Under the pieces are notes generated by a model. That model was not told the DNA's origin. It searched no databases and saw nothing but the letters and a program-made list of their open reading frames with translations. A stretch of 64,000 bases of DNA from Yuukianura sp. NJ FZ-2021. Its lineage: Eukaryota. The translations under genes and the position numbers were made by a program. Position 1 is the first letter of the stretch. Every line of letters starts with the position of its first letter. Below, piece by piece: positions 7,418-51,500 of this stretch. The stretch covers positions 2,170,001 to 2,234,000 of the forward strand of contig CM102286.1 in the NCBI GenBank assembly GCA_046563655.1, written 5' to 3'.

Positions 7418-8922
7418 ATGAATTTGGAATCGCAGACGGCTGACAGCATCGGCATCAACCCAATTCTACCAATTGAAGTGAGTCAAGCAAATGTAAAGTC
7501 ATTTTGTTAAGGTTTGCTTTCTGTTTTAATGTTATCGTCAATTGGTTAGACTAAGATGAATTAAAGCACTTTGAATATAAACCTCACAAACGTTTGAATT
7601 AATATTAGGTGGTGTTCAAGATACTTGGTTATGTGGATAACCCCAAGGACCTTCTACCATGGCGTACAGTTAGCAGAGCTTGGAACGAAATGACTACTCA
7701 CCATATATTCGAGAAAGGCGTTCCGGTCAAATTTTTTACTGAAAGTACTGTCTGTAGCGAAGTGGAAGAAATCGACAAACCAATACAACAGTTTCTTGAT
7801 ACGATGGAAGGCAGACTGCAAGACACCAAATTTCCATTTTCCAGATTCGAATTCGCCTTGTGCAATGACCAATGTCCGGTCAACAATGAAGAATTTCACA
7901 TTCATCCGACTCTGGCCTCATTCCAGAAGCTGGCAGATGCAGTGGGGTCATTTGTCAAACACTACGTAATACACTTGGAGCCCTACTTTGCTGGAGATAC
8001 AGATCAAGTCTTGGAAGCTATCCTGACCCAGGCACCAAACTTGGAAAAACTTTCCGTTTACGGACACAACGACAAACTTTCCACGGCGGTTGCTTTGAAT
8101 TCGTCATTCCATCTTCCTAAGCTGAAGTACATTGAAGTCATGCCCTACTCAGAAAAAGATGAAATATGTTCAAATGAGGATTATAACGATGAACCTTCCA
8201 GCATCAAGTTTGATCATTTTTCATCATGGTTCTCCAATTCACCGGCGCTTCAAGTTGTCAAATGCGGTTTCGGCGTGCAAGTAACTTCAGATATTCAAGC
8301 AACAGAATACGTCCGAATACTTCAAACTTTTGATGCCGTCGAACTTGAATTATACAGGGAAGAAGCTATTTTAGTTCAAAAGTTAATCGCACGCCCACTG
8401 CCAACTCTGCATACTTTACACCTGGATACTCGAGTCGGTCCGGAGCTGGTTCTGGCTTTACTGAAATGTACCGCCGTAACACTTCACAAATTGTACCTCT
8501 ACTTTGAATATTCTCCTTTTGCCACATCAATTAGTATTACGATCCCAATGCTCCCAAATCTAGAAGTACTGGAACTGGAATTTGGTCACGCTGACTCGAT
8601 AAGTGGACCTTTCCTATCAAGTCCATTACAAGCAGCACAATTTCCAAATCTTAAAAGTCTTACTTTAAGAGAGTACAAGCGTGATGGGGTTGGGGATAAT
8701 GACGTTGAATATTTACGGCTACTATTTGATGGGAGTATTTTTGATACTGTTCAAAAATTGGATTTAATCGACTTAAACAACTGCAAGCGTCCACCATCAG
8801 AACCATGGGATACACTCTTTCCAAATGTATCAGAAGAGGCCTATCAACCTCCTACATCAAAATTTATGGACAAATCAAGACAGATATCCATACGGAAATA
8901 CTCCTTCTATTATGTATGGTAA
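7418..8922 (+). CDS. F-box protein with degenerate LRR/RNI-like C-terminal region (~457 aa)
   Basis: Exon 7418-7477 (MNLESQTADSIGINPILPIE) spliced to 7609-8922 gives the F-box signature LPIEVVFKILGYV...WRTVSRAWN. Repeated LRR-like motifs follow (PNLEKLSV, PKLKYIEV, PNLEVLEL, PNLKSLTL). Confidence 0.8.
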
Positions 8923-9029
8923 ATAAGCTGTTCATCAGTTCGAGTATAGGAGAGATATAGCGGAGGCCTTCTCCTATATCTCTCCTATACTCAAAATCAA
9001 CTCCAAACTGATGAACAGCTTATTTACCA
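8917..9029. repeat. Nested inverted repeat (MITE-like foldback) overlapping the F-box stop codon
   Basis: Perfect 24-bp outer arms TGGTAAATAAGCTGTTCATCAGTT (8917-8940) / AACTGATGAACAGCTTATTTACCA (9006-9029). 19-bp inner arms GAGTATAGGAGAGATATAG / CTATATCTCTCCTATACTC. Confidence 0.8.
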
Positions 9030-9199
9030 CAAATAGTACTCATATTTACGTGAGTTCTTTGGTGACATTTAAGAACTTGCTAAGAGAATTTAAATAAAAT
9101 CTGTAATAAAATAATCAAAAGGCACACAAAACGAAAGTAAATAAAAAAACAAACAAACAAGGTTATTCTTTGTACGTATTATAATAACTAAACATTTAT

Positions 9200-12100
9200 T
9201 TATTTGTTAGATCTGACTAAAATTTCAGCAGTGAAATAGCCAAGCATTCCCAGTATTATAACGCCAAGTAAAATGTACAATTTCAAATCTACACAAACTT
9301 GAGTTGTTTCGACGTAAGCAATGATGTAGCCAATACTTTCCCAGAGGCGGTAATTGCTGAAGGCAGCTTCTTCATTTTTCTGGAACAGGACGCCATAGAG
9401 AGCTAAAAGAGTCAGGAACAAACAAAAATATATTTTCAAAGAACTTGTAAGATAGTGTTAAAACGTTTACAGTTGATTTGAGTTTGCCAAATTCCGTCGC
9501 TGATTCCCCAGACTCCAGCGATTACGAAGAAGATGATTGGAGTAGTTGGAGTGGGATGCCAAAAGATCATGGTCAAAATCATAGAAATATTTAGAGCAGC
9601 GCCAAGTATGAATACTGGAATTCTTCCCAAATAGCGAATCACTGGACCGAAACTGATTGACGACATGGCGTCACAGACGCCATAGCAGATCATAACGTAT
9701 CCGACGTTCCCTACGCCCCAAGAACAGGTAATGTATGCCTGCAAGATTCAGAAATCAATTTACAAAATTTCAATCTTTGGTTTTTATGAGAATTTACGAT
9801 TTATAAAGTTCCGATGACCTTGATTGACCCTGATTAATAAAAGTGTTGCTTAAGAAGGAATCTACGGAAACAATGACGATTTTTTGAAGATTGCCCATGA
9901 AAAATGATGTGGGTTAGAAAAACTGTGGAGTGAGTTTTACATTTTCCAAAAACAGATGACGAAACCAAAACAAATCTGTTTTCCATAAGTTTCGTTGTTT
10001 TGATTAATTCGCTAATTAATTACACGAACGTGATAATCACCGATTACTATAGCCTTGATTGGAATTTTGACAAGATTACTACTGCTGAAGCATCAAATGA
10101 TATGCTGCTGAATTGATGGTAACAAAACTTTAAATATGGTTTTTGGTTGAGTTTTTTCCAGTTTTTATCAAAATTACTTTTTTGATTTTTAGAACAAGCG
10201 GTCGGTATGCCCGGTATCCTGTCTGAGTTGCTGTCTGGAATCGGAGACTTTTTTCGCATAATTTTACAAATGTTGGGATTTGCGTCAGGGACGACAGGAG
10301 CAATTGAGGAAGGGAAGCTACGCGTTTTTATCAAGCATCCCAACGCAGTTGCCGGAGTTCTTCCGGTAGATTTGGATCCATCTTGGTCAATTCACGATGT
10401 CAAACAAAGGATTGGTCCTAAGCTCAAGTTAGAACCGCGAGAAATCAAGATTATATTCGCCGGGAAAGAATTGGGTGACGAAATTATCATTCAGGTGAGA
10501 AGAGACATTGGCAATGCAATTTGCAAGGCAGATGAACGTTGGTAATTGAAGATTTATGTAACTATCGCAGGACTGCAACGTTGGACAACAGAGCTTCCTA
10601 CATGCCGTTCAGATTCAAGTCAAACAACCCCAACTTCCAGAAACTACCAAACGGAAAGAAGTTGAACCATCACCGGATTTAAGCGTGCCATTTTTTAAAA
10701 ACGAAATTCATCAATCATCCGTTGAGCCTCAGTCAGATTTACACTCGTCACATGACGGCGACCTTTCAGTTCCACGCTCAACTACTCCAGTCGATAATTC
10801 TAGTTCGGTTGCTCCAGCCGCTGCTTCCAAGTCTAACTTTTACGTCTATTGCAATGTTTGCCAAGAGTTACGTGAAGGCAAGCTGCGTGTCCGCTGTGCC
10901 AGTTGCCATTCTGGTGCCTTTATCGTATTACGTGACCCAGTTTCTTGGGAAGATGTACTTCAACCGAACAGGGTAAATTCTATCCAGTACGGCAATCATC
11001 ACAGTTCTTGGTTAATAATTAGTGTGAATCCTATTTCTAGGTCCCTGGATCCTGTGAAACTCAAGACTGCAATAGCAATTACTCCGAATTCTACTTCAAG
11101 TGCGCTTCACACGTTACCCTGGGAGAAGATGATTCATGGCCACCACTACCGCAAGTAAAACGAAACCCTGATTTGGTTCCTTGCCTGGCATGTGGAGAAG
11201 CGAATGATCCCATGTTTATTTTCGATTGCACGCATACCACTTGCATCCCATGCTTCCAGCAGTATTCCTTACTGAAGCTCAACGAACGACAATTTGTGCA
11301 AGTGAGACTAAAATACACTTAAAACAAGTATTTCGTACTATAATTTGTATTACTATTACTAATTGTACTCCTATTACTAACGATAAGTACTATTGATGTT
11401 GATTCACTTCCAGGACTCAAATATCGGATACTCTCTAGGATGTCCTGCCCTCTGCCAGCAATCTCTCATTCGAGATCCGCATCATCTCAAGCTCATGGGA
11501 AAATATCAAGTAACTCCTGAGATAAATGAAAATGCTTCCATTTTTGATAAAGAATATATGCATTTTTTGCAGTATGATCGATATCAACGATTTGGAGCAG
11601 AAGAGTTCGTTCTGCAAGCTGGAGGAATTTTGTGCCCTCAACCCGATTGTGGCATGGGTATAATCCCAATCGAAACAAACTGCAACAAAATTGCGTGTGT
11701 TCATGGATGTGGGGTGAGTTGAGTCAAAAGTCAAAGTTAATTCTCAAGATCATTTCTTCAAAGTAAGTTCATGTTAACTTTATCTTGATTTCAGTTTGTG
11801 TTTTGTCGTCGATGTTTGGAGGGATGGCACATGGGAGAATGTTCCAGAGAACCTAGTGCTATAGCTTCTGGAAATCCTGGAACGAGCAGCTACCCTACAA
11901 TTACAACTGAAATGGCTGCAAGAGCTCAATGGGACGATGCAACACGGAGAACAATCAAAATTCTGACGAAACCGTGTCCTAAATGTCGGGTACCGACGCA
12001 ACGTGATGGCGGTAAACAAAACAATTTTTTTTAAACTTGAATAGTACTTTTCAGAAAAATTCTAATTTTTGGTTGACCCTTCGCCTTCAGGTTGTATGCA

Positions 12101-14559
12101 CATGGAGTGTCCAAAGTGCTCTTTCAACTGGTGCTGGGTTTGTCAAGTCCAGTGGAGTCGCGAGTGCATGGGAAACCACTGGTTCGAATAACTATGGCAT
12201 TGATGAACATGCAGTTTTCGATAGTTTCATTTTTAGACCCTAGTCGAAGTATTTTGATTTTGAAAATACTTGTCCGAACTTTGTAAATGAACGATTTTCG
12301 TTATGAATTAAAAATTGAAGAAGACTTTTCAAACCTGTGTAAAGTCTGATCCGAAGAATCCTTGTTCCATGCCCGACCAAATCGTCAGTGGAATCATAAC
12401 AATTTGCAGTGGTTTCACCATCTGACGAAACGTGGCTGACAGTAACCGTTTTCCACTCAACTTTGAAGCTCCAGTGCCTTCCCGGTCACGATCTTTCTCT
12501 CCATATCTGCAATTTTCAAAATTTGTAACACTTTCTAAGTTTTATAACATTTTTTAGTTTTTTGTTAGTTTCTTTTAGTAGATGTCACCTTGTTAGTGGA
12601 TCTACCAATACCGCCACAAGTATTGCTGCAAGTACAGCACATCCCAAGTATATTCCAGCCAACAAGTACACTTTGGATTTGTTTGGTTGCCCAATGGCCC
12701 CTCCATTGCCCTTTACATCCGATGGACAGAAGTTGACACCACAGAAACTGATGTTCTTTTCCTCAAAGGTCGAATTTCCAGAAGACAGAATTGAAGAAGA
12801 AATCAAATTTCTAGAACAAGGTGAGGCATTCTACTCAAATTCTGAAACTTTTAAAGTTTGATACCTACTCAATTTTTGAAGTTTTCTAATCTAAATTTTT
12901 GTACCCCCAGATCTGCGAAGTTTGGAACGAGAAAAAGAAGATGCCGAAGAACCTAACGATGATGACTTCCGCTTTGTCTGAACGCAGCTCTGCGTATTGA
13001 TGACCAACCTAACAAGGCTCAAAAAAGTTTTGTAATTACTGAAAATTTCTTACGTATAGTTCAATTAACATTAACTTCAAAACTTAAAAAATATTTTGAA
13101 AAGTTTTTTTGTTACTCACGTGAGTCAGATATGTACACTTGGATGACCAAAGTGGAGCTGCGCAGAGTCCAAGTACAACTGCTGCTGGAATCAATGTGGC
13201 AAATGTAGGATAGAATTGAGCAGCAATGTACGATATGTAGCCAAACATGGAGAAAACCAATGTCCACTTGGCGGTAAATTTTTGAATTAAGAATGTTGGC
13301 AAAAACATTGACGACAAAACGAGAGCTGCGTACAGTGTTGCCAAAGAGTACGGCCCAAGACCATCCTAAAACAAAGAAAATGCATTATAAAATTAGTCTG
13401 CGCATGTACAAGTTCCTTTTCGCGCCCTTTTACCTGCGAGTTCAATGAACTCTGTAGATTTGCCATACTGTTGAAGGCAGTGAACATCAGTGTAAAACAT
13501 AAGCTAATCACAATAACATTTTTGAGCATGCGTCGATTCTCTCCTTTACTATACACTCTCCGAGGAATTCCTGCGTTATTGTCTGTTTTCTTATCAAAAC
13601 CTTCTGAATCACCGATAGGTGGCGTTTGGTACACAAATTCATTTTCTACCGAGTACGCCAAATTTACTTCGCCAGTACCACAGGAATTACTTTCGGTAAT
13701 ATTCATCGCTAATCGATTAGTAATTGACTAAAAACTAAGTCAATTGATGCTAAAACGGTACTAAATGATAAAAGTTACTATTCAGTTTTGTTCTTACTCG
13801 GTTTAACGTTACTCCGAAACTGAAATTCTACCAAAGGCATATTTGGAAAAAAAAATTCATCATCACCGTCTACTCTCTGATTAATTTGATGCAATTTTTT
13901 GCCCGTCCAAGATCATTGCTTGCTAATTTGCCAACCTACACCTTGATGAATACCGTGAAAAGTCAATGCTCTATCTTTTGTTCTCGGAAAAAACTTTTTG
14001 CTTATTAATTTTTTTTCGTGCTAAACTTATTTTCATGTCAATCAAATTTTTTTCAGAGTATGACAGTGTGAATAGGGCTTTAGCATGGCAGAGCGAGGGC
14101 GGTTATGACGCTATTGTTGTAATTACTGAAAAGAAGTAAAAGTACGGCATTGTTTGCCGTATTGAAGAGTAAAGGTTAATCCAAGTTAGCTTAGTTTCTT
14201 CATTAGTAATTGATTAGATCTAATTAACCTCATGCTTAATGGAACGTTACCTCGTGATTAATGGAACTCTGAAGGTTGGCCATACTCTGGAAGGCTGTGA
14301 ACATTAGTGTGAAGGCAAGGCTAATCACTCCAACATTTCGCAATATCCGTTTCTTTTCTTTAGCAATTTCAATTGGATCACTGATGTTTCCTGTTTTTCT
14401 TAGAGGAAACGTGCTCTTTGGATTAGCAATTGAGTCTTTTCCACTGTAAATTGACATGAATCGACCCAAGTCCGAGTCATCTCCAGCCATAGCAGAAATG
14501 GAAATGTGCAATTTGTTCCAATTGGTTGAAATTCGTCTGTCACTGCTATTTGTATCCAT
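9200..14559 (-). CDS. UNC93: UNC-93-like MFS membrane protein (UNC93A-type) with two alternative first coding exons
   Basis: Common exons 13365-13120, 13008-12905, 12810-12589, 12506-12335, 9738-9471 and 9402-9200 all join in frame. The first exon is either 13706-13434 or 14559-14251. Family motifs: [54 protein letters not shown]. Confidence 0.9.
10207..12191 (+). CDS. park: Parkin RBR E3 ubiquitin ligase (Ubl-RING0-RING1-IBR-RING2)
   Basis: Ubl with IIFAGKEL and GQQS (Ser65 equivalent). RING0 FYVYC..GKLRVRC..W.DVL. RING1 [41 protein letters not shown]2 [29 protein letters not shown], ending CMGNHWFE* (TAA 12189-12191). About 7 coding exons. Confidence 0.95.
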
Positions 14560-15089
14560 CACTTAAGTCTTTGGATTTTCAAGGTCCATGGAGAAAATCA
14601 AATGGAAAAGGAAGAAATTTTTAGTCAAAAAAGCAAAATCGAACTGAAAACTAAAAATAGTAGAAATTGTAGCAGTTTTGGAAAAGTTTAAGCTTAAGTG
14701 TTAGGCTTAGAATTGTCTATTGTTTGAAATGGGTCTTGTCAAATTTAATCAAGTTCACCTGAAAAAAGAAATTTGACACTAAGCAATTGTATTGAGGTCG
14801 TTGAATTGCAGAGTAGCTTTGACAGTTGATTACCCCTGGAAGGTGATTTTCACAACATAATGACAAAACACATTTGAACAATTTCACACTTGAGCAATTC
14901 AAAAGCAAAACCAATTACAAAGTTCAGATTTTGCTATTGTTCCGCTGAAACGCAAAAGTTTGACCTTTGACCTTTTGAAAACTCCCTACAGAAATTCAAA
15001 AGTTTCACTCAATGTTTCTTTTAAAACTTCATTTACAGAATTTATTAGCTCCATTGTTAACATCAGCGATCAGAAATTATTGCCTGAGG

Positions 15090-16832
15090 CTAAACTAGTC
15101 TCTTGGGCTGTCCAGTGCTGTTTAGCAGCGATTCCGATTCGGCAAGCATTTTCGGCCCACCGCCAATTTTTGTGTGAATGATGTACCGTAAGACGTTACC
15201 GGTCCAAGGTTCACGTTTTAAAACGTTACACCAACCCTGGAAATGAGAAAAATTGGAATGAAATCAAACTGTACCGGAATATCGAAAACCAAAACCGGTA
15301 TCGGTAATTCGGTTTGAATTTTAATGGGTCGGCTTACCTTTGGAACGGCTTCGGTTTTGAATGGAAGCCCTTTGTAGTAGTCAGCTGGTGGCTGATTGGC
15401 TGGAAAAGCGTGATTCACGGCAGCCAGTACTTTCGAAACGTTTTCTTCCAACAAATAGAGACAAGCGTTTGGTCCAGCATCGTAGGTGTAGGCAACCTAA
15501 AAATTTCAAAAATTTCAAAACTTCATTTCAATTTCAAAATTTTCAAAAAATGTTAGACGTTACAATGACTTTTCCAGCATCTTTGTTAATTTGATGAACC
15601 AAGTCGGCTATGGCATGAGAGACGTCGTTCATGTAGACACAGGGTGGATACGTATCCAAGCAACAAGCATGAAATTGGTCGCTGTCCTGCATCGTAATTT
15701 TGGCAAAAGTTTCGTAATCCCGATTTTTGATTGCTTCTGTAATACTTTTCATGCGTTCTGGCACGCATTTTGCGACGCGATGTTTCAGAAGTTCGCTCGT
15801 CATCACACTCGTCTGCATCCCGCTGGTGCTGCTCGTCTTTTTCTTGTTGTCGCTCACCTGAAAAACATAGTAAAAGTTTTGAAAAATACTTTTTTAAAAT
15901 TTTGAAAATTTAAAATTTTTGAAATTTTACCACGAGAATAACGACTCTCATTTCTGGCCAATGTCGCTCATCCACGATTTGTTCCGCGACGGAATCCAAA
16001 CCGTCGTCACGGTTTCCAGCCAGCCATTGAACAAAACCGCCCTCGATACTTCTACAAGCACTTCCAGATCCAGTTCTTGCAATGGATGAAATGTCTCCGT
16101 CAATTTCAAACAATTGCGCCAAAGAGTAAACTGAAATTTCAAAAAAGTTGAAAATTCTGAGATTTAAAATTTTTCTTTTACATTTCTAACCAAGACAAGC
16201 ATATCCTGCTGCTGACGATGCCAAACCGGCGGCCGTTGGGAAATTATTTTCCGAGCAAATGTGAACTTTCCATCCAATTTCCTCTGTCGTCAGCTTCTTT
16301 TGTGCTTTTGCCCTGGCCTTGACTATAACATTTCAAAATTCAATTGAGTCTCAGATTAACAGATTATGAAAAAAGCTTTTTTTTTTAGTTTCCTGTTTTT
16401 TGAAACTTACTTTCCGTAAGGCAGTTTTGAAGTCTTACATTTCCCATTGACTCTTCCTTGCCATTGAGCCAAATTCGATCAGAAGTAAACGATGGATCGA
16501 TGGCCACCGTAGTTTTAGAACACATCTAAAAAATATTTTAAAACGTCTCTAAAAAATTCAACAAACAAGTCCACAAATTCAAAAAAAAAGTTCACAATTT
16601 TTGTTTCGTGTTCCAATTACCTGGTCTGTGCTAAGTGTTCCACTTAGCGAGTCGTTCAGTGGCAAAATGAGTTCTTCATTTCGCTTTCCCCCTAAAATTA
16701 AAAGATTTAGAATTATCATACTCCAAAGACATATTTATTTTTCAAAAATACATTTTTTTTCAAAAAATATCTTGACTTACAGTATTTAATTACAGCAATA
16801 TTCACCGGAGCAATACAAGTAACGAACTTCAT
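15090..16832 (-). CDS. MVD: Diphosphomevalonate decarboxylase
   Basis: Motifs [76 protein letters not shown] and YTYDAGPNA across ~8 exons. ATG at 16832, TAG at 15092-15090. Confidence 0.95.
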
Positions 16833-18238: not shown

Positions 18239-18686
18239 TTATTTCCCGAACCCTCCGCGACATGGTGGGCTTGGTTCGATTACTTTCGTAGCCATCTTTT
18301 CCCATTCTTCTGGCGTTTTGGCGATGATTGAAAGTGCATGAAGACCTCTGTTATCCATTTCGTCTTTCAGAAGACCTTGTATCTAAATTGAAAAGTAATC
18401 ATGATAATTTGTCTAAGTTCTAGGCAAAACGAACTCCAATGTTAGAAGCACTCACGCGTTGTTCCCGTTTTACTCGTGACACTCCGACAAATTGTGGAGT
18501 AACAACTACAATCTTGAGATGTGTTTCTGACCCAGATGGAACACCATGCTTGTGTGACTCGTTAATTATTTCAAGGTGAGTGGTAGCCAGTTCGGTTTGG
18601 AACAAATCGGTGATTCTTTGAGTCCGTTCTCCCATTATTCTTGATGTCGATCTTAGACTTGTTAGAAATCTTCGTGCAATCAACAT
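18239..18686 (-). CDS. BOLA1: BolA1-type protein with probable mitochondrial presequence
   Basis: Two exons. Motifs LEIINESHKHGVPSGSETHLKIVVV, LHALSIIAKTPEEW and C-terminal SPPCRGG. The N-terminus (MLIARRFLTSLRSTSR) is Arg/Ser-rich and lacks acidic residues. Confidence 0.9.
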
Positions 18687-19499
18687 CCAATTAGTTACCC
18701 GCCGGAACTGAAGACTCGAAGACCGATACTGACTGCCTTTTTATGTTAAGTTTACAAATTACAATTTCAAATGGTGTCAATTTAAGACGATTTAAGCCGA
18801 TTTAAAAACACTTACCACAGGAACTTTTTGGTACTTCAATTTGTGTCGACCGTTCCAGTAGATTTTACAATTCAACCAATTATAAGTACATAAAAGATTC
18901 ACGTTAATTAATTTAGAATCTAACTCAGTCAATTTAGAAATGAAAATGCATGGAACTGGAACAAAATGAATTTGAAAATGAACTTTTCGGGTTTTGATTT
19001 TACTCGAACTTTTTTAAACTGGTTCGCGCCAAAAAGTTGCGTAAAAAAAGTGGTGTGAGACGCGCAGTCATCGTCCTGTCTTTTCTAGAAACAATAACTT
19101 AAGCATAATGTGTAATATTTTTTTCATGCTTTTACATGTTTGTACTATTATATTTTTATTAGATGTATGGTTAATCCCATAGGTAACCCAACGATATATT
19201 TGTCTTATCAATTTTTTTTACTTTAATTTCCGTGTGTTATTGTCCATACCACATTACATTCACCACACCACATGTAATCGTAGTTTATGTAAGAATACGA
19301 CGTTGCAACGTTTTGTACAACTTAGAAACGCAACTTTTAAAAAAAATTCACTCTCATTCTCAAATCTCAAATACTTGGAAATGCACTTGCGTCCTTATTT
19401 GTGTAATTTACTTTTACTCCTTAATGCTACTTCGACATTTGATGCCTACGTGACATTTTCCACGTAGTAAGTAGTTTATGTGTTTAGACGCAAGTTGAG

Positions 19500-25730: not shown

Positions 25731-27293
25731 TCAATAAAAAACTGGAACTGAGCAAATTCCAATTTTATCGTAGGGTTTGCATCCATAGAAACAGCATTTC
25801 CGGGTCCCTTCACATTCAGTATCCAGGGTACACTGCGCAGCATCCGGTTGAAGTGCAATGCAAGTTTTGTTAGCCAACATAGTTATGTTTTCGCATTTTC
25901 CCGGTTTAACTTTCGGAACAAGCAGAGAGGAAGTGACCAATGACGGACGAGCAGTGGACATTTCATGTTCTTCGGTTTTGTTCTCAAACGTAGATTCATC
26001 ACGCCTATTTCCTGCAATTAAACTCCAATTAACTTAACAATTAATTCCAATTTGTACCTAAACTGTTCCAGGAAGAACAAAAAGTGACCTTGGACAGGCT
26101 GAGTTCCGTTTCGTGTCATGTTGGCATATGACATGCCAGTGTGATTTTGATTTTCAAGTTCCGTAGAAGTGACATTCATTGGATCTTCCGTCGTGGTCAT
26201 CGTGACGCCATGAGTCATGTTTTTTCTGGGAAAATTTCTCGATGAATTCGAAATTTGAACTTCGCCTTTTGTAATCAAACCGCCAGAACTTCCGAAATCT
26301 GTCCCCTTTTTCATTTCTAATGTCCGGAAGTTGTACGATTCCAACTTTGAATCTTCCCGCCGTCTTCGACGTTTCCCGCGTCCTCTGCCGCCACTTTTTG
26401 GCGGGAAAAATTCGTCAAGTAAATCCGGTTCTTGCTCTTCACAGCGTTCTGAATTACATAACAGAGGAAAATGAATTTTTGAATTTTCTTCAAAAATTTC
26501 AAAATCATGATTTAAAAATTTCATTTCTTTCGAAAAGTTTACTTGATTTTGAAGAACAACTTTCCACTGGCGGAGAGATGGTGGTTGATGTTGCGTTGTA
26601 GTCAGGCTGAGGTTCTTCCGATTCCGTAACATTTTTGAGTGTATGAGCCAACTTATTTAGAGCAATGCGCACTTGGATTAAAAAAAACGCAATTTTTAAA
26701 GAAAAATTGAAATTTTTAACTTATTGAACAAAAATGGTTTTCAAAATTTTGAAATTACCGGCAGTACCAATAGCCGCTTCCAGTTCTTTTCTGTCGCCAA
26801 AAAGTGACCTGTTTTGCCCTGCGTTCGGATCCTCCGTTTCGTCTGGAACGTCTTCGCCCGTTCCGCGCGAAGTTTTGGACGCGCCGGAACGGCGGACACG
26901 TATTAAGTCACCAACGTAATCAAGCGTACCGCTCACTGCTCCACCGACGGCACCCGTGATTCCGCCCAATCCGCCATTGATCGTACCGATCAACGTTCTG
27001 TTTGACTTTGCTTCATTTTGAAGTCGGACCAGAGGAACGATGACGGTGACATTGAAGCTGTCATTGACGGTGACATTGGCGTCGTCCTGGTCACCATCAT
27101 GGTGGCAACATATGTCGAAACAGTGGCAACAAACGTCTAAAGTTGAGTTGTCCACTGGACATGGTTCGGAGTCAGCAGCATGACAAATGTCATTGTAGTC
27201 CTCAGTTTTGTCGGCGCAATACTCTACGTCCTCGCCCAAGCTTGATTTGAGTAAAACGACGAAAAGTGTACTTAAAAGTAGGAATTTGTTCAT
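25731..27293 (-). CDS. Secreted 434-aa precursor with N-terminal Cys-rich acidic module, furin-type sites and C-terminal WAP (four-disulfide core) domain
   Basis: Exons 27293-26759, 26671-26543, 26448-26089 and 26011-25731 join in frame. Signal peptide present; RVRR and RGKRRRR sites. KPGKC..C..CTLDTECEGTRKCCFYGC..C is an 8-Cys WAP pattern. Confidence 0.8.
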
Positions 27294-28269: not shown

Positions 28270-29213
28270 ATGGAAAGAAAATACTTTTGCATTCACTGTG
28301 GCCATCCTGCGGCAGCCATATTTAAAATTTATGGAAAACAGAACTTGGTGAAGCTGATCGAATGCGTAAGGATACAGTTAGTATCATAACTTCATACATC
28401 GAACGTTGCTCCTAATGTATGGAATTGTTGAGACAAGTGAATCAAAGCATTTGATTCCTTTGTATTTCAGGAGCAGTGCGGTCAATTGGTTGACAAGTTT
28501 GTCGAGTACGACCTCATCATTATCATTATCAACCTAATTCTCCAAGATGAGACAGCCTACCGGCATCTTCTGCTCAATTCAAAGTTAAGGGTACGTGTTG
28601 CTAAAGATCCAACAAGCAATACAATGTGAGAAACACATTTAACTCTGCCTTTGTCCTTTTCAGAACTACTGGAAGCTGGGACTCTTCTTTCTAATTATTC
28701 AGGCGTATTGCTTCTGGTGTTTTCACAAATCAGCAGAACTTCATTCCCAGAAAGAAACCTACTATCAGCTGGAAACAAACTTCTACCAGTCCCTGATCCG
28801 ATCTTTGGTCAATATATTGTCTCTCCATGGTCTTATTCTTCTGGCATCCCTAATGATGTTTTGTTTTCGACCCGTTGAATCCTATTCCACGTTTTCCTTG
28901 TGGAAAGGATTGATTATTGCTGGATACAGTGAACTCTTTGAACTGTGCCGACTCGTTTGGTCATATTCCATTGACAGTCCAAGGATGTATTTCCACCAGG
29001 GGCTTCTCATCATGTCATGTACGCTCTGTTTTAAAGGTAAGTCATTTTCAATTTTAGGTAAGTTAGCTTTCCACCACGTATAATCTTGTTAATTTTTTTT
29101 CAGTTGTTAACGGTGTCAACAAAGTTCAGGCCCTGTTTACCGTCATTCTATGCTGGATTATCCAAAAGTACATTATTTCGGTGTACGACGAAAACTTTCC
29201 AGTTACCACCTAA
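28270..29213 (+). CDS. ARV1: ARV1 family ER membrane protein
   Basis: Arv1 homology domain: CIHCG..LIEC/EQCGQLVDKFVEYDLIIIIINLIL..AYRHLLLN, followed by hydrophobic TM exons. Four exons, TAA at 29211-29213. Confidence 0.9.
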
Positions 29214-29953: not shown

Positions 29954-32900
29954 ATGGAACCGTTGGATCTGCTTGCCGAACGGAGGGCGAGCCATGACTT
30001 TCGATGGGCCTCCAGAAGTTGGCCAGGCGTTCCTTACTTCGTGCGAGGTGAACTGAAAAGTCCAAAACAAATCGTTCAAGCGGTCATGGAAAATCAGGCA
30101 GTTCAAAAAGTTATTCGAGAGGTGAGGCTTGGTTGCTTTCAATAATTCAATCTAGCTAGAGTCATTTAGTCTAAGAATATTGAAAATTACAGCAAGCGAA
30201 AGAGAAGAAGGCAAAAGAAGAGGATATCTGTAAACAAGCGAAGGAGACTCTGCTGGAACTTGCCCACGATTATCACATGTACGTTTAGTTCTATTTGAAT
30301 GTAGAATTCTTGTAAACTCTTCATTTATTTGAATGCCAGGTACGCCATTCGGTGGTTTGCTGTCATGCTTTCAAAGTTAGCAAAACGTCTCTACAACAGT
30401 ATTCAAGTTGATGTGCAAAGGTTGAATGAAATCAAACGCGCCTACTCCAGTTATCCAGTATTACTGCTCCCTACCCACCGAAGTTACGTCGATTTCCTTT
30501 TGGTCTCTTACTTGTCTTTCTCCTTCGACTTAACATTGCCCATCATTGCTGCTGGAATGGGTAAGATCTTGTAAAACTTCTCAAAAATTATTCTTGTTAT
30601 GCTTGACCTGACGTTGGTTTTTCCAGACTTCAAAGGTATGATTGGCGTGGGTGAATTTCTGCGAAAGTCTGGAGCCTTTTACATCCGTCGTCGATTTGGC
30701 GGAGATCCACTGTATTGGGCTCTAATCAGCGAGTATGTGAAAACAGCTGTTCTGGAAGGCGGACATCCACTGGAAATGTTCGTCGAAGGAACCCGAAGTA
30801 GAACTGGGAAGTCACTCAAACCCAAAATCGGTCTTTTGTCAATAATTTTGGAACTCGTCAGTTCTGGTCAAATCCCTAACATTCTTATTCTGCCTATCAG
30901 CATGAGTTACGACCGTACCCTGGAGGAACGGCTGTACGCCCATGAACTTTTGGGGCAACCTAAGCCCAAGGAATCAACAAACGTAAGGACATGCAAATTT
31001 TTAAGCACCGATTAGCTTTCATTTACTTATGGAGTGATTAATTTTTGTTATACTTTGTATACAGGGCCTCATGAAAGCTCTAAAGTGGCTGGGAAGTCAA
31101 AGTTACGGCTCAGTCTACGTAAACTTCGGGAATTTAATTTCCGTCCGAGAAATGCTCGAAGCCAAGTCAAATCCTGTCACAAGTATTCGTGCCGAACAGT
31201 ATCTCAAAAGTGTTCAAGAAATTGCTCTCAAAGTAGTATTAGATCAACAAGCAAATCTAGTCGTACCGATCATCGGAGGGATTTCGTTAATTGTCATTTC
31301 AGAGGTAATCAGAACTTATCTCATTTAATCTTCTATTACTAATTTACTGTTGTTAGCCAACATTTTCTTGTTTCTGATTCCAGTTAGCAAGAAATGATGC
31401 ATTTGCAATGCCCTTGAAGTCTCTCGTTCAACGTCTCGAATTTCTTCAATTCTTGTTGAACTCAAGACATGCGCGATTCGGGTATCCACTTCTACGTGAA
31501 TCGCTGGAAACCAATGTCCGTTATATCATCAGCGTCCATCCATCTCTGCTCAGTATTACACCGGAAAGTCCCAGCGGTGACCTCGTCGTTGGAAAATTCG
31601 CGTCTGGAGATACAATTCAAATGATGGTGTTCCAACATTATACAAATCAAATCCTCAACAACATTTTTCCATTGTGTATCGTGGCTCTTCTGGATCAAGT
31701 TGACAACGTCGGAAGTCCTCTGGAAAATGCAAACAAAGACTCAAGTATTTCAAATTCTGCATTGGAAGTAGAAGGAAACTACATCTTTATGAGAGAAGTT
31801 TTTCAAGAGGATTTTCTGTACGAAACGAGTACAATTAGGCAGGTAATTGTGACTTTAGTTGTAGTACTTGCGTTATTTTACTGGTGGGAGAAACTTACCG
31901 TAAAACTTCTTATACACACCCGGGCGTCTTTTTATTTTTCGTGCCTCCAGTCCTGGCCTGTATTCCCGGAGAGTACTGGGGATTCGGCTTGTATTGGAGA
32001 CCCGACATGTATTGAGGAGGTATTTTATTAGAAGTTTTACGGTAATGGTTTGGTGGTTTGTTGTAATACAGCTGTGAAACTGTAGGTTTAATACTTTCCC
32101 ATGGTCATTTACATAGTAAATGTTGTTTAAAGCATCTGGATTGTCTGGAAAGCAGCAGAGAGGTTTTACAGCTCCGTCGCTTTGCCTCCTTTGTTTGTTG
32201 TGACATGATACTCTTGAGAAATCCCACACAGACACTTGTGGCTTGTTTCGACTCAAAATTCACACACACACTACACAAACCAAGCCGCTTTTAAGAGCAT
32301 ATGCTGTCAAAGTAACAACTTAACGAAAACTAGATACTAAAAACTTAGCGAAATCTAAAACAACTTTATGTCCACATGTCAACTTACTTTTGTGTTATTA
32401 GCTCTACTGTGTAAATGTTAATGAAGTAAATTGAATACATAATGATAAATTTTTCAACTTGAGTTTCAAAAACTGTTTGGTTTTGCTTTGCAGGAACTGG
32501 AGTGGGCATTGACCTTGTACAGTTCGTTGAAAGATGCTTCGAAATGTGAACGTGTTGGAAATACTTGTCGTGATGGAAGCTTCGAATCAAGTACTGCTGA
32601 ATATGGACACTTCTGTGAGCTACAAATCCTGCGCCGTGCTCTGGAACCTTACTTTATGTCGTACTGGGGAGTTGCAAAAAAGCTGGAAGAAGTAAAAACA
32701 TTCAAAATGTTAAAATATTCCAAATTCGGGCTTTCTGCGATGATTTCTAACATGAGGTTTCAATTTGTTTTGACTTTTTAGATAACTCGGATCAACCCGT
32801 CGACACGTTATGAAATGAAGGAATTTGGAATTTCATGTCAAAATTTTCTCACAGAGGAAATGAAGTCTGGAAAAATTATCAATGCCTATGGAGCTCTTTC

Positions 32901-48259: not shown

Positions 48260-48545
48260 AAACGGAGGAAATACTGAAGAAGGAAATTGTTGCGAAAGTG
48301 AGGAAATACTGAGCAAATCGAGGAAATTCTAAGAAAAGTGAGAAATAGTGAAGAAACAGAGAAAATTGTGGGGAAAGTAAGGAAATTCTGAAGAAATTGA
48401 GGAAAGTGAGGAAATAACGAGGAAAGTTGAAAAATACTGAAAAACGGGAAATATTGGCGAAAGTGAGGAAATTTTGGCGAAAGTGAGGAAATACTGGGGA
48501 AAGTGAATAAATTCTGGGGAAAGTGAGAAAATACTTCGGAAAATG
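48260..48545 (+). repeat. Purine-rich degenerate minisatellite (GAAAGTGAGGAAATACTG-like units) directly upstream of the corto-like ATG
   Basis: Roughly a dozen imperfect ~18-21 bp units ending at the ATG at 48543. Confidence 0.75.
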
Positions 48546-51500
48546 TTGAGATACAACAACAGTAGTGGAATAGGTGCTGTCAAGCCAGTTGACTACTACC
48601 GCCCCCTTACAGTTGACGTAAGTGTAGAGTATGAGTTACCAAAGGAAGTGGCCCCACCGAAAGGCAGTGCCCCACTTCTTATCATCCATCCGTCAGCCTA
48701 CTTCCGTTCCAAACCAAATTCAGCCACTTCGTCTCCCACCAAACCCAGCCACCATCAATCCACCTCCAGAGCCACCAGCAGCACTGCTCAGAGTCAGCAG
48801 CGCCTAGGTGACATTGCCTCTACACTCTACTATTTATCAACCAATGGCCTTCCTCCGCCACCTCCAAATCAAAACTCATCTCCGCAGCAACATATCACTG
48901 GCAGTAGTCGTGGAGCCAACCGTGGCCTCACCGCGGCCGATCCAAATACCTCCAGAATCACACGATCTCGAACGGCCAAGGCCCAAAACTGTGATGACTA
49001 CCGAAGTAGACTCATGTCGTTGACAGCATCAGCATCCTCCACCACAACTGGAACGGCTCAGTCAATGAAATTTTCTGAGAACGTGGGTGGGAGGGGCGGA
49101 GTTATCAAGAAAGTGGGACATTCCCACCAGAACCACCAAAGTCTGAATCAGTTTTCACAAAACCACTTGGACGGAAGTGGTGGCGGTGGATACTTGGCTG
49201 CCGGTTATGGTCCAGTTCCAATGGATTCGTCCTCTTCTGTCCCAACTACAACCTCAGCAGTACTGTTCACTCAAGGTCAGCAACCAGCTCCGCAGCAGCA
49301 CAGTCGCACTACTGCTAGCAACAAACGCCTGCGCATGATGAATCAACAACAACCAACAATGTATCCCCCAAATACTACCAATTCAAGTGGACTCATGCTG
49401 GAACCTTTGAATCTCGCTCTCACGCCCACACCTCAACTTCCCACTGCCTACAACAATCAGCCATTTTCAACTTTTTTAGGCTACGGTGGTCTCCAGTCGG
49501 CCGTTCCGCCTGGACGACCAGCCAACAACAGTCCGTCAATGACCTTGACAGGTCAAACCAATCAAGCTTACCCACAACAACCCCAGCATTTGACCAGTTT
49601 CCAACAAAATCATTTCCTAGCATATGCCCAGCAACAACAACTTCAGCAGCATCAGCGCCATCTTGTGACAGGAATGGCCAAGGAGGGCCCTGTACCTGTG
49701 GACAAGGGCTCTGGGTCTGACAGTGGCGTTTGTTCTGAAAATGATTCAGACGTGTCTCCTCCCATGGCAGCGGCGCCTTTTTCAAATACAACCTCAGCTT
49801 CAAGTCAAATGTCGAGGAGATCGAATCTCACAGCCTCTCAAGAATTCCCTGGCGCAGGTAAGGATTTTCTACCAACCTAACTTATAGCCTAACCTTAAGA
49901 AATAGACTTTAGATGCGTAAGAGCGCGCGTTTGTTCAAAGTCCTTCCACTCTCCTCTCCAATTTCTTTGTTCTGTTCTGATCTTAAGAATGTTCGAAAGG
50001 CGCTTCTTTCGTTCCAGGCGGATCAGAAAAGAAACTCATAAGAAGTTTTCCTGAGCTGAGGGCTTCGTTTTTTCTAAATGGACTTTTTTCGTTTTTTGAA
50101 AAAAGCTTTTCTGGTTCGTGTAATATATAAGAATGGATCCAAGGGGAAATGATGAATGTCTCTTTTCCGAGAGGGCCGAAGGAAAACGTTTTTCCCCTTA
50201 CAAGTTCGTGCAAGTTCCTAGCTCTGGCTGGAACCTCATTCTTAAGTCTCCCGGCAAAGGGCTCTCTTCTTTTCTTTTCTTTTGGCAGCAGAATTCCGTG
50301 CGTCTTCGAAAAAAATTAGAAAACGGTTCAGTTTTGAACATACCGGTTTGCCCACGGTGTCTTTACAAAACAAACTTCCTCATTTTCTGGTTCTCTAATT
50401 GTAAGTCTGAACGGAAACGCTGGAACTCAAATGCCACCGCCTAAAATACGATGGAATGTTGGTTATGGTCTCATTTTTTAAAAATTCAAACAGTTTTTAA
50501 AATTCAAACACAGTTTCAGGTTTTTTTTTTTAAATTTTGAATTTTGTCTCTCCCCGCTATTTTTGAAACCTTGATGCTCAAACTAGATTTATTTCACTCT
50601 AACACAAAAAAGAAGTCTGGATTTTCAAAATTTGTTTGCAAAGCTGCTGTTGATATTAGAAATTACAGTTCAACTAACTGTAATTTTAATTTTTTTCTGT
50701 GTAAAGTTAGTTAACTGTCAGAAAATTTTGTTCAACTAACCAAACTTTTGTTCAATAATTTTTAGCGGCATTCATGAAGCCGACTTGAATTAAGTTAAGT
50801 TAGTTAAGTTAACTTAAATGTAGTTAATTAACTCGTAAAACGTAAAACGAGCAAATTGGCTTGAACTTTTGCGTCTGTGCCGTCATTTTTTTTATTATGT
50901 GTACAATTCCAAAAGTGTATTTGAGTAACCAGCGAAGAACAAATACAAGTTTAGTAAGGCGTTTTTTTTTACTTTTTATTTTCAGTAACTTGTGCAAATT
51001 TCCTTTTCGGAAAGTTAAAGAACGACAATTGAGCTTCACTTTTAGTGTCACTTTTAAAGGCTTCTCGAAGGAAGTAGAAAATTTTAAAAAAGCAAAAAAA
51101 ATGACAAAACTATACTTTGTGTTTCCTGCGTCCTTTTAAACTTTTTTTTAGAGTCTCACCATGATATTTTTATTTAACAATTTTTTTAAACAAGAAAACA
51201 TTATCCATCCTCCTCCCTTTCCTCCTGCTGCAGTCAAACATTTGGCCTCCTTCGACTAAAATTGTTATTTAACAAGCGTCAAAATTTTTTGTAGCTTTTT
51301 TTTTGTAACATGGATATGAAGAAATCCATAAATTCAAGTCCACAGCCCAACTTTGTTTTTTCTATGGGAGAGGGAAATGCATAAGCGTGGAGTAGTTACG
51401 ACAGACGACGACAAAAGGCTTCACATACAATAGATATTAATGCAACTTCCCGTTTGAACTTCTGCAGCGATCAGCAGCCTTCGTTCGCAACGGTTCGTGT

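What the first reader, a model, noticed from the sequence alone, without database searches (positions are those of the whole stretch)
9739..12334. Complete parkin gene nested antisense inside one intron of an UNC-93-like gene
Seen: every other intron among the UNC93 common exons is under 120 bp. The intron between exons 12506-12335 and 9738-9471 is 2.6 kb and holds the whole parkin CDS (10207-12191) on the opposite strand. Only ~470 bp separate the parkin ATG from one host exon, and 143 bp separate its stop from the other. Inference: the parkin promoter and 3'UTR may overlap host exons, allowing transcriptional interference or sense-antisense pairing. Established: human PRKN (6q26) and UNC93A (6q27) are also linked. 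Ancient synteny is possible but could be coincidence.
Basis: partly seen in the sequence, partly recalled or inferred. Interest (0 to 1): 0.7.

Follow-up and report, generated by a model that had tools for sequence, protein, structure and literature searches.

The report
Parkin gene nested in UNC93-like intron
A complete parkin gene sits backwards inside one intron of a membrane-transporter gene in a springtail-like animal, and related animals show the same layout, so it is an old but ordinary example of one gene nested inside another.

Summary
A 7-exon, 501-codon parkin gene (10207-12191, +) has all GT-AG introns of 63-112 nt. It lies wholly inside a 2,596-nt intron (12334-9739) of a minus-strand UNC93A-like transporter gene, whose other common introns are 68-111 nt. 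The spacers are 468 nt and 143 nt, as reported.

Four homologues, including 480- and 481-aa UNC93A-like proteins, run collinearly across the 12335>9738 junction with no residue missing. The two halves are therefore one gene by homology. No RNA run could be listed, so splicing remains untested.

New here: 2 of 80 metagenome loci carrying UNC93-like genes show the same layout. L007 shows host exon 5 followed by antisense parkin. L006 shows the parkin start diverging from host exon 6.

A parkin tree puts the window, L007 and the springtails Allacma and Orchesella in one clade with SH-aLRT 100. The nest therefore predates a deep split among springtail-like hexapods.

Nested genes are common (about 10% of Drosophila genes; passage in PMC13343718). 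No regulatory coupling is shown, and the proposed link to human 6q26-q27 is untested. This is an ordinary kind of feature and a new, conserved example of it.

The parts
10207..12191 (+). Complete parkin coding region: 7 exons (10207-10494, 10571-10972, 11041-11301, 11414-11509, 11573-11713, 11795-12011, 12091-12191), 501 aa plus stop
   Evidence: All splice sites are GT-AG and the joined frame is open. Pfam finds ubiquitin, RING0, RING1, IBR and RING2 on successive exons. It keeps 75 of 78 invariant columns and 27 of 27 invariant Cys/His of a 6-parkin alignment.
9739..12334 (-). Host intron of 2,596 nt that contains parkin
   Evidence: Donor CAG|GTTTGA at 12335/12334 and acceptor AG at 9740-9739. 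Homologues are collinear across it.
12335..12506 (-). Host (UNC93A-like) exon 5, 143 nt from the parkin stop
   Evidence: tblastn of P0002-P0005 ends exactly at 12335. L007 copy 2 has the same CAG|GTTTG donor.
9471..9738 (-). Host exon 6, 468 nt from the parkin ATG
   Evidence: tblastn of P0002-P0005 resumes at 9741/9735 with the next residue. Weak MFS_1 hit.
9200..9402 (-). Host last exon with stop codon 9202-9200. AATAAA signals overlap the stop (9204-9195).
12589..13365 (-). Host common exons 2-4 (13365-13120, 13008-12905, 12810-12589)
   Evidence: Pfam UNC-93 PF05978 on exon 2. Collinear homologue matches. Splice sites read.
13434..13706 (-). Host first exon B (proximal): ATG 13706-13704, donor GT at 13433
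   Evidence: Read. P0004 and P0005 match it.
14251..14559 (-). Host first exon A (distal alternative, or a relic of a tandem copy): ATG 14559-14557, donor GT at 14250, same phase as exon B
   Evidence: Read. P0004 and P0005 match it as an alternative to exon B.
12307..12312 (+). ATTAAA, the only canonical-type poly(A) signal after the parkin stop, 23 nt before host exon 5
   Evidence: Motif scan. Its use is inferred, not shown.
9739..10206 (+). 468-nt spacer (31% G+C) that must hold the parkin promoter and 5'UTR unless an upstream non-coding exon exists
   Evidence: There is an in-frame stop at 10183 upstream of the ATG. No similarity to the equivalent spacer of L006.

Best explanation
This is a genuine nested gene pair. 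An intact parkin gene (RBR E3 ubiquitin ligase) lies antisense inside one intron of an intact UNC93A-like MFS transporter gene, in the genome of a springtail-like hexapod.

The two are most likely independent transcription units (inferred, not shown):
- RNA polymerase transcribing the host runs through parkin on the opposite strand, and the 2.6-kb intron is spliced out from 12335 to 9738.
- Parkin starts from its own promoter in the 468-nt spacer next to host exon 6.
- Parkin ends near the ATTAAA 23 nt before host exon 5.

The arrangement is old. It predates the split between the window's lineage and an Orchesella-like lineage.

Its persistence needs no functional coupling. Once a gene lies inside an intron, most rearrangements that would free it also break the host, so selection on both genes keeps the nest. 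The intron itself is an ancient, widely shared UNC93A intron. Parkin therefore either moved into an existing intron or was enclosed after a local duplication of the host. Transcriptional interference or a short sense-antisense overlap at the parkin 3' end is possible but unshown.
For: Sequence and domains:
- Both gene models are complete, with canonical splice sites.
- Pfam domain order on parkin is Ubl-RING0-RING1-IBR-RING2, and UNC-93 is found on the host.
- 27 of 27 invariant Cys/His of a parkin alignment are kept.

Host continuity:
- 4 of 4 homologues that span the junction are collinear with no missing residue. They include the 480-aa Cyprideis and 481-aa Lingula UNC93A-like proteins.
- P0002, a 326-aa product of a 1,220-nt contig, has exons 3-7 contiguous and groups with the window's host gene (SH-aLRT 83).

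Conservation of the layout:
- In L007, host copy 2 exons 1-5 end with the same CAG|GTTTG donor. 201 nt further on comes the stop of an antisense parkin, whose exons 2-5 have the same boundaries as in the window.
- In L006, the parkin ATG lies 322 nt from host exon 6, in divergent orientation.
- A panel of 123 parkins finds parkin on only these 2 of 80 loci.

Trees:
- Parkin tree: the window, Allacma, Orchesella, L007 and P0006 form a clade with SH-aLRT 100.
- Host N-terminal tree: the window groups with L007 copy 2 and L001 (SH-aLRT 89), with the un-nested L007 copy 1 outside.

Age of the intron:
- It is present at the same position, without parkin, in 22 intervals on other loci.

Frequency of the kind:
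- Nested genes are about 10% of Drosophila genes (passage in PMC13343718 citing Assis 2008).
Against: - There is no RNA evidence for the 12335>9738 junction or for the parkin transcript ends in this organism.
- L006 and L007 each show only one side of the nest, because both contigs end inside parkin.
- L007 copy 2 sits on a long branch (0.98). It could in principle be a truncated copy lying tail-to-tail with parkin.
- L001 falls in the same weakly resolved host group but has exons 3-6 contiguous, so it has no intron and no nest there.
- Tree supports for host orthology are moderate (83-93) and come from short alignments of 89 and 247 columns.
- The taxon label 'springtail-like' rests on the parkin tree alone.
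Confidence: 0.85

Rival explanations
1. The nest is kept because the two genes regulate each other. Host transcription through parkin, or pairing of the parkin 3' end with host exon 5 and its donor site, would tune parkin or transporter expression.
For: - The layout is conserved across a deep split.
- Spacers are very tight in all three cases: 143 and 201 nt at the parkin 3' end, 468 and 322 nt at its 5' end.
- The only poly(A)-type signal sits 23 nt from the host exon in the window.
Against: - There is no sequence conservation in either spacer between the window and L006 or L007.
- In L007 the AATAAA motifs read lie well before the host exon, so a 3' overlap is not a conserved feature.
- Conservation is expected for any nested pair under selection on both genes.
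- There are no expression data.
Confidence: 0.12
2. The UNC93-like gene is split. An N-terminal half (exons 1-5) and a C-terminal half (exons 6-7) would be separate genes flanking parkin, rather than one gene spliced across it.
For: - No RNA evidence for the junction could be obtained.
- Read-through past 12335 meets a stop after one codon, so a half-protein could terminate there.
Against: - Exon 6 starts in phase 0 exactly where exon 5 ends in every homologue.
- The open frame upstream of exon 6 holds no ATG (ORF 9436-9747).
- The intron position is shared by 22 intervals in other loci, and the exons are contiguous in 18 transcript-like or intron-poor loci.
- Canonical donor and acceptor are present, and the donor is conserved in L007.
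Confidence: 0.04
3. The pairing is a remnant of an ancient bilaterian PRKN-UNC93A neighbourhood that also survives as the human 6q26-6q27 linkage.
For: - UNC93A maps to 6q27 (title of Liu et al. 2002, seen in the reference list of PMC5671512).
- PRKN lies in 6q26-q27 (title and abstract listing of PMC9192176).
- The pairing is old in springtail-like hexapods.
Against: - Parkin is absent from the other 78 UNC93-like loci, many from other animal groups, although most are short.
- No other human 6q26-q27 orthologue and no PACRG was recognised in the window.
- The human genes are megabases apart (recalled).
- In Drosophila melanogaster the two genes are on different chromosomes (recalled, not checked).
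- Two genes sharing a chromosome arm by chance is not rare.
Confidence: 0.08
4. Assembly artefact: parkin was wrongly placed between two halves of the host gene.
For: None beyond the lack of read-level data.
Against: The same two junction neighbourhoods occur on independent contigs from two other organisms. The window has no N.
Confidence: 0.01

Closest known systems
Nested (intronic) protein-coding genes of animals, as surveyed by Assis et al. 2008 (about 10% of Drosophila genes, 5% of mammalian genes; passage in PMC13343718). The classic case, recalled, is the cuticle-protein gene on the opposite strand inside an intron of Drosophila Gart.
   Same: The whole coding region of one multi-exon gene lies in one intron of another gene, on the opposite strand. 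Each gene has its own start and end signals, and the host intron is enlarged only by its guest.
   Different: The particular pair (parkin inside an UNC93A-like transporter) was not found in print in four full-text searches. Here it is also shown to be shared by diverged relatives.
Human PRKN-PACRG head-to-head pair with a shared bidirectional promoter (abstracts of PMC8074078 and bioRxiv 10.1101/783373)
   Same: Parkin's 5' end lies a few hundred bases from sequence of an antisense neighbour.
   Different: No PACRG was recognised in the window. The neighbour here is an internal exon of a host gene, not another gene's promoter, and parkin is enclosed rather than adjacent.
Arthropod parkin orthologues, e.g. 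Orchesella cincta P0076 and Allacma fusca P0007
   Same: They share the Ubl-RING0-RING1-IBR-RING2 order. Identity is 52-53% over nearly the full length, and they form a clade with SH-aLRT 100.
   Different: The genomic context of those named orthologues could not be read with these tools.
UNC93A-like MFS proteins (Lingula anatina 'protein unc-93 homolog A' P0005; Cyprideis torosa P0004)
   Same: The host is collinear with them over the whole length at 38-63% identity per exon. The host encodes 495 or 507 aa against their 480-481 aa.
   Different: The host has two alternative first exons and carries the guest gene in its fifth common intron.

Membership tests
Parkin (RBR E3 ubiquitin ligase) | N-terminal ubiquitin-like domain | tested here: met
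   PF00240 on exon 1, 30.7 bits against a cut-off of 25.4
Parkin (RBR E3 ubiquitin ligase) | Parkin-specific RING0 followed by RING1 | tested here: met
   PF17976 zf-RING_12 at 63.3 bits on exon 2, continuing on exon 3. PF17978 zf-RING_14 at 49.6 and 32.5 bits on exons 3 and 4.
Parkin (RBR E3 ubiquitin ligase) | IBR and RING2 with their zinc ligands and the catalytic cysteine | tested here: met
   IBR on exon 5 scores 21.2 bits, below the 24.3 cut-off, because the domain is cut by an intron. IBR_2 scores 28.9 and 38.8 bits on exons 6 and 7. 27 of 27 invariant Cys/His columns of alignment A2 are kept. Which of these is the catalytic Cys is recalled, not tested.
Parkin (RBR E3 ubiquitin ligase) | Groups with named parkin orthologues | tested here: met
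   In a 21-row tree it forms a clade with the springtail parkins at SH-aLRT 100.
UNC-93 / UNC93A-like MFS proteins | Pfam UNC-93 signature and full-length collinearity with UNC93A homologues | tested here: met
   PF05978 at 46.8 bits against a cut-off of 22.9 on exon 2. P0004 and P0005 align to every exon in order.
Nested gene pair (guest within a host intron) | The whole guest coding region lies between two consecutive host exons | tested here: met
   Parkin CDS 10207-12191 lies inside intron 12334-9739.
Nested gene pair (guest within a host intron) | The flanking host exons are joined in one mRNA | tested here: inconclusive
   Supported by homology and by transcript-like contigs of relatives. 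No RNA run was listed for this organism.
Nested gene pair (guest within a host intron) | The guest transcript, UTRs included, lies within the intron | not testable with these tools
   Only a motif is available: ATTAAA at 12307-12312.
Ancient bilaterian PRKN-UNC93A microsynteny | Linkage of the two orthologues in several phyla | not testable with these tools
   No eukaryote genomes are held. Among 80 metagenome loci, only 2 related ones show the pair.

The most novel reading that the evidence does not exclude
The parkin/UNC93A-like pairing is not a frozen accident. It would be a selected sense-antisense unit, or the surviving core of an ancestral bilaterian neighbourhood of which the human PRKN (6q26) and UNC93A (6q27) linkage is the stretched remnant. 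Expression of a mitochondrial quality-control ligase and an orphan transporter would then have been coupled in cis since before springtails diversified.
Probability: 0.08. Interest if true: 0.55.

Novelty: new member of a known kind. Interest (0 to 1): 0.3.

Why it matters
It gives a clean, well-delimited nested pair involving a disease-relevant gene. Both partners are intact, and the layout is shared by diverged relatives. That makes it a usable natural case for asking whether transcription through a nested antisense gene affects either partner.

For annotation, it shows that the two UNC93-like halves should be joined into one gene model and that parkin should not be merged with them.

Beyond that it is an expected kind of genome architecture in compact arthropod genomes.

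Tried and rejected
- RNA evidence: the look-up of sequencing runs (kind rna, window 9150-14650) listed no RNA holder. 'None was listed' is not 'none exists'. Read laying could therefore not be used.
- The window's own genome is not held, so paralogue counts and the location of PACRG could not be checked.
- Earlier scan notes: nothing near this place, nothing by sequence, and only unrelated notes by words.
- Rfam on 8500-15500: no match.
- Extended microsynteny: no window ORF of at least 50 aa outside 9200-14600 matches any of the 80 loci.
- Non-coding conservation of the two spacers against L006 and L007: only chance 7-9-mers.
- Literature: four full-text searches found no paper describing parkin nested in an UNC93-like gene or PRKN-UNC93A synteny.
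- The supplements of PMC3514665 (Irimia et al. 2012, lists of conserved microsyntenic pairs) were closed. They may bear on the synteny claim.
- A mafft --keeplength add-in misaligned the N-terminus of the partial L007 parkin. For L007, only the 77 invariant columns other than the initiator Met count, and all 77 are kept.
- Rejected: assembly artefact and split host gene (see rival explanations).
Full report
**What is there**

On the + strand, seven open exons join into a 1,506-nt frame with a single terminal stop. The exons are 10207-10494, 10571-10972, 11041-11301, 11414-11509, 11573-11713, 11795-12011 and 12091-12191. All six introns are GT-AG and 63-112 nt long.

Scanned exon by exon, Pfam gives the following hits:
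- ubiquitin on exon 1;
- zf-RING_12 (RING0) on exons 2-3;
- zf-RING_14 (RING1) on exons 3-4;
- IBR on exon 5;
- IBR_2 (RING2) on exons 6-7.

When added to an alignment of six parkins (A2), the product keeps 75 of 78 invariant columns. The three differences are V>T, V>I and E>Q. It keeps all 27 invariant Cys/His. This is an intact parkin gene.

**The host**

On the - strand lie two alternative first exons (14559-14251 and 13706-13434). Each has an ATG and a phase-0 GT donor. Six common exons follow: 13365-13120, 13008-12905, 12810-12589, 12506-12335, 9738-9471 and 9402-9200. The common introns measure 68, 111, 94, 82, 2,596 and 68 nt.

Exon 13365-13120 matches Pfam UNC-93 (PF05978) at 46.8 bits against a cut-off of 22.9.

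A search with exon 6 returned a 480-aa protein of the ostracod Cyprideis torosa, the 481-aa 'protein unc-93 homolog A' of Lingula, and two unnamed JGI proteins. By tblastn, all four that reach both sides of the large intron are collinear across it with no residue missing. For example, P0004 residue 312 ends at 12335 and resumes at 9741.

**Is the junction real?**

Direct RNA evidence could not be had, because no RNA run was listed. This is reported as a blank only. The indirect evidence is as follows:
- Donor and acceptor are canonical and phase-matched.
- P0002 is a 326-aa product of a 1,220-nt contig, which leaves no room for introns. Its exons 3-7 are contiguous, and it groups with the window's host gene in an exon-6 tree (SH-aLRT 83).
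- Forty of the 80 related metagenome loci show the exon 5 to exon 6 interval. In 18 loci the exons are contiguous. In 22 intervals they are separated by an intron of 53-1,351 nt at exactly this position, without parkin.

The intron is therefore an old feature of UNC93A-like genes, and here it carries a guest.

**The same nest elsewhere**

A scan of metagenome contigs with an exon-6 alignment gave 80 loci. The window's parkin exons and a panel of 123 parkins match only two of them.

L007 holds 14,882 nt of a 16,386-nt contig.
- It carries two tandem UNC93-like genes.
- Copy 1 is complete, with an 80-nt intron at this position.
- Copy 2 has open exons 1-5 that end in the same CAG|GTTTG donor at 13148.
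- 201 nt further on is the stop (13352-13350) of an antisense parkin.
- That parkin's exons 2-5 have the same boundaries as in the window, and its exons 6 and 7 are fused.
- The contig ends inside parkin.

L006 (2,998 nt) begins inside parkin exon 2.
- Parkin exon 1 has its ATG at 450-448.
- Host exon 6, split there by an extra intron, starts 322 nt away on the other strand at 773.
- Host exon 7 follows.

Each contig shows one side of the nest. Together with the window, they show both sides in three organisms.

**Who are they?**

Identities by blastp:
- window parkin against Orchesella cincta 52%, against Allacma fusca 53%, against insects 45-47%;
- L007 parkin against those two springtails 61% and 59%;
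- window against L007 56% over 412 residues.

In a 21-row tree, the window, Allacma, Orchesella, L007 and P0006 form a clade with SH-aLRT 100. L007 groups with Orchesella and P0006 at 94. The window's organism is thus springtail-like, and the nest predates a deep split in that clade. The crown age of springtails is only recalled by me, not tested.

For the host, a 247-column tree groups the window with L007 copy 2 and L001 (SH-aLRT 89), with L007 copy 1 outside. The 89-column exon-6 tree groups the window with P0001 (93) and with L006 and P0002 (83), with L001 and L007 copy 1 outside. These results fit orthology of the nest-bearing genes, but the support is moderate. L001 has no intron at this position, and its place is unresolved.

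**How it most likely works**

Shown:
- two intact genes;
- one enclosed in the other's intron;
- the layout conserved in relatives.

Inferred:
- The genes are separate transcription units.
- The parkin promoter and 5'UTR fit in the 468-nt, 31% G+C spacer.
- Parkin's only AATAAA/ATTAAA signal (12307-12312) lies 23 nt before host exon 5. The mRNA should therefore end at or a few bases into that exon.
- In L007, AATAAA motifs lie further from the host exon (read), so such an overlap is not a conserved trait.
- Neither spacer shows sequence similarity to its counterpart in L006 or L007.

I therefore take the conservation to reflect entrapment: removing the guest would usually break the host. I do not take it to reflect selected antisense regulation, to which I give about 0.12.

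How parkin came to lie there is open. It may have moved into an existing intron. This is the usual route according to the passage in PMC13343718 citing Assis 2008. Alternatively, it may have been enclosed after a local duplication of the host. The tandem copies in L007 and the doubled first exon in the window show that duplication does happen at this locus. The second route is my speculation.

**The synteny idea**

UNC93A at 6q27 is supported by the title of Liu et al. 2002 in a reference list. PRKN at 6q26-q27 is supported by a search listing. Nothing here tests linkage outside the springtail-like clade:
- no eukaryote genome is held;
- the other 78 loci lack parkin, but most are short;
- the window's recognisable neighbours are MVD, BolA, a WAP-domain gene, ARV1 and a GPAT-like acyltransferase, with no PACRG (142 of 169 ORFs of at least 75 aa scanned; the other 27 lie in 9200-14600).

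Four full-text searches found no paper on this pair. The supplement lists of Irimia et al. 2012 were closed. I give the deep-synteny reading about 0.08.

**Verdict**

It is a new, conserved example of a common kind of gene arrangement. Regulatory consequences and deep synteny remain untested.

Noticed in passing
window 14559-14251 and 13706-13434 (- strand): The host gene has two paralogous first exons. Each has its own ATG, the same conserved TM1 motif and a phase-0 GT donor, and they lie about 850 nt apart. They are either mutually exclusive alternative first exons with separate promoters, or the distal one is the last relic of a tandem copy like L007 copy 1.
   Followed up: partly
L007 8698-10537 and 11835-13148: There are two tandem UNC93A-like genes in a springtail-like relative. 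Only the downstream copy is followed by antisense parkin. The upstream copy has an 80-nt intron at the nest position.
   Followed up: partly
L007 13667-13353; L006 773-1124; L001 1643-2386: There is intron turnover among relatives. Parkin intron 6 is absent in L007. Host exon 6 is split by an extra intron in L006 and probably in L007 copy 1. L001 lacks host introns 3-5 altogether.
   Followed up: partly
window 7609-8919 (+) and 48507-49877 (+): Two long uninterrupted ORFs (437 and 457 aa) have no Pfam match at E<=1e-4. The first lies just beyond the host gene's 3' end.
   Followed up: no
window 15221-16185 (-), 18423-18740 (-), 25734-26033 (-), 28643-29080 (+), 30575-32028 (+): The neighbouring genes recognised by Pfam are diphosphomevalonate decarboxylase, BolA-like, a WAP domain, ARV1-like and a GPAT-like acyltransferase. 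None was recognised as an orthologue of a human 6q26-q27 gene.
   Followed up: partly
window 10207-10310: Parkin has an N-terminal extension of about 35 residues before the Ubl domain. It is also present in L006. From recall, insect parkins have a similar extension.
   Followed up: no
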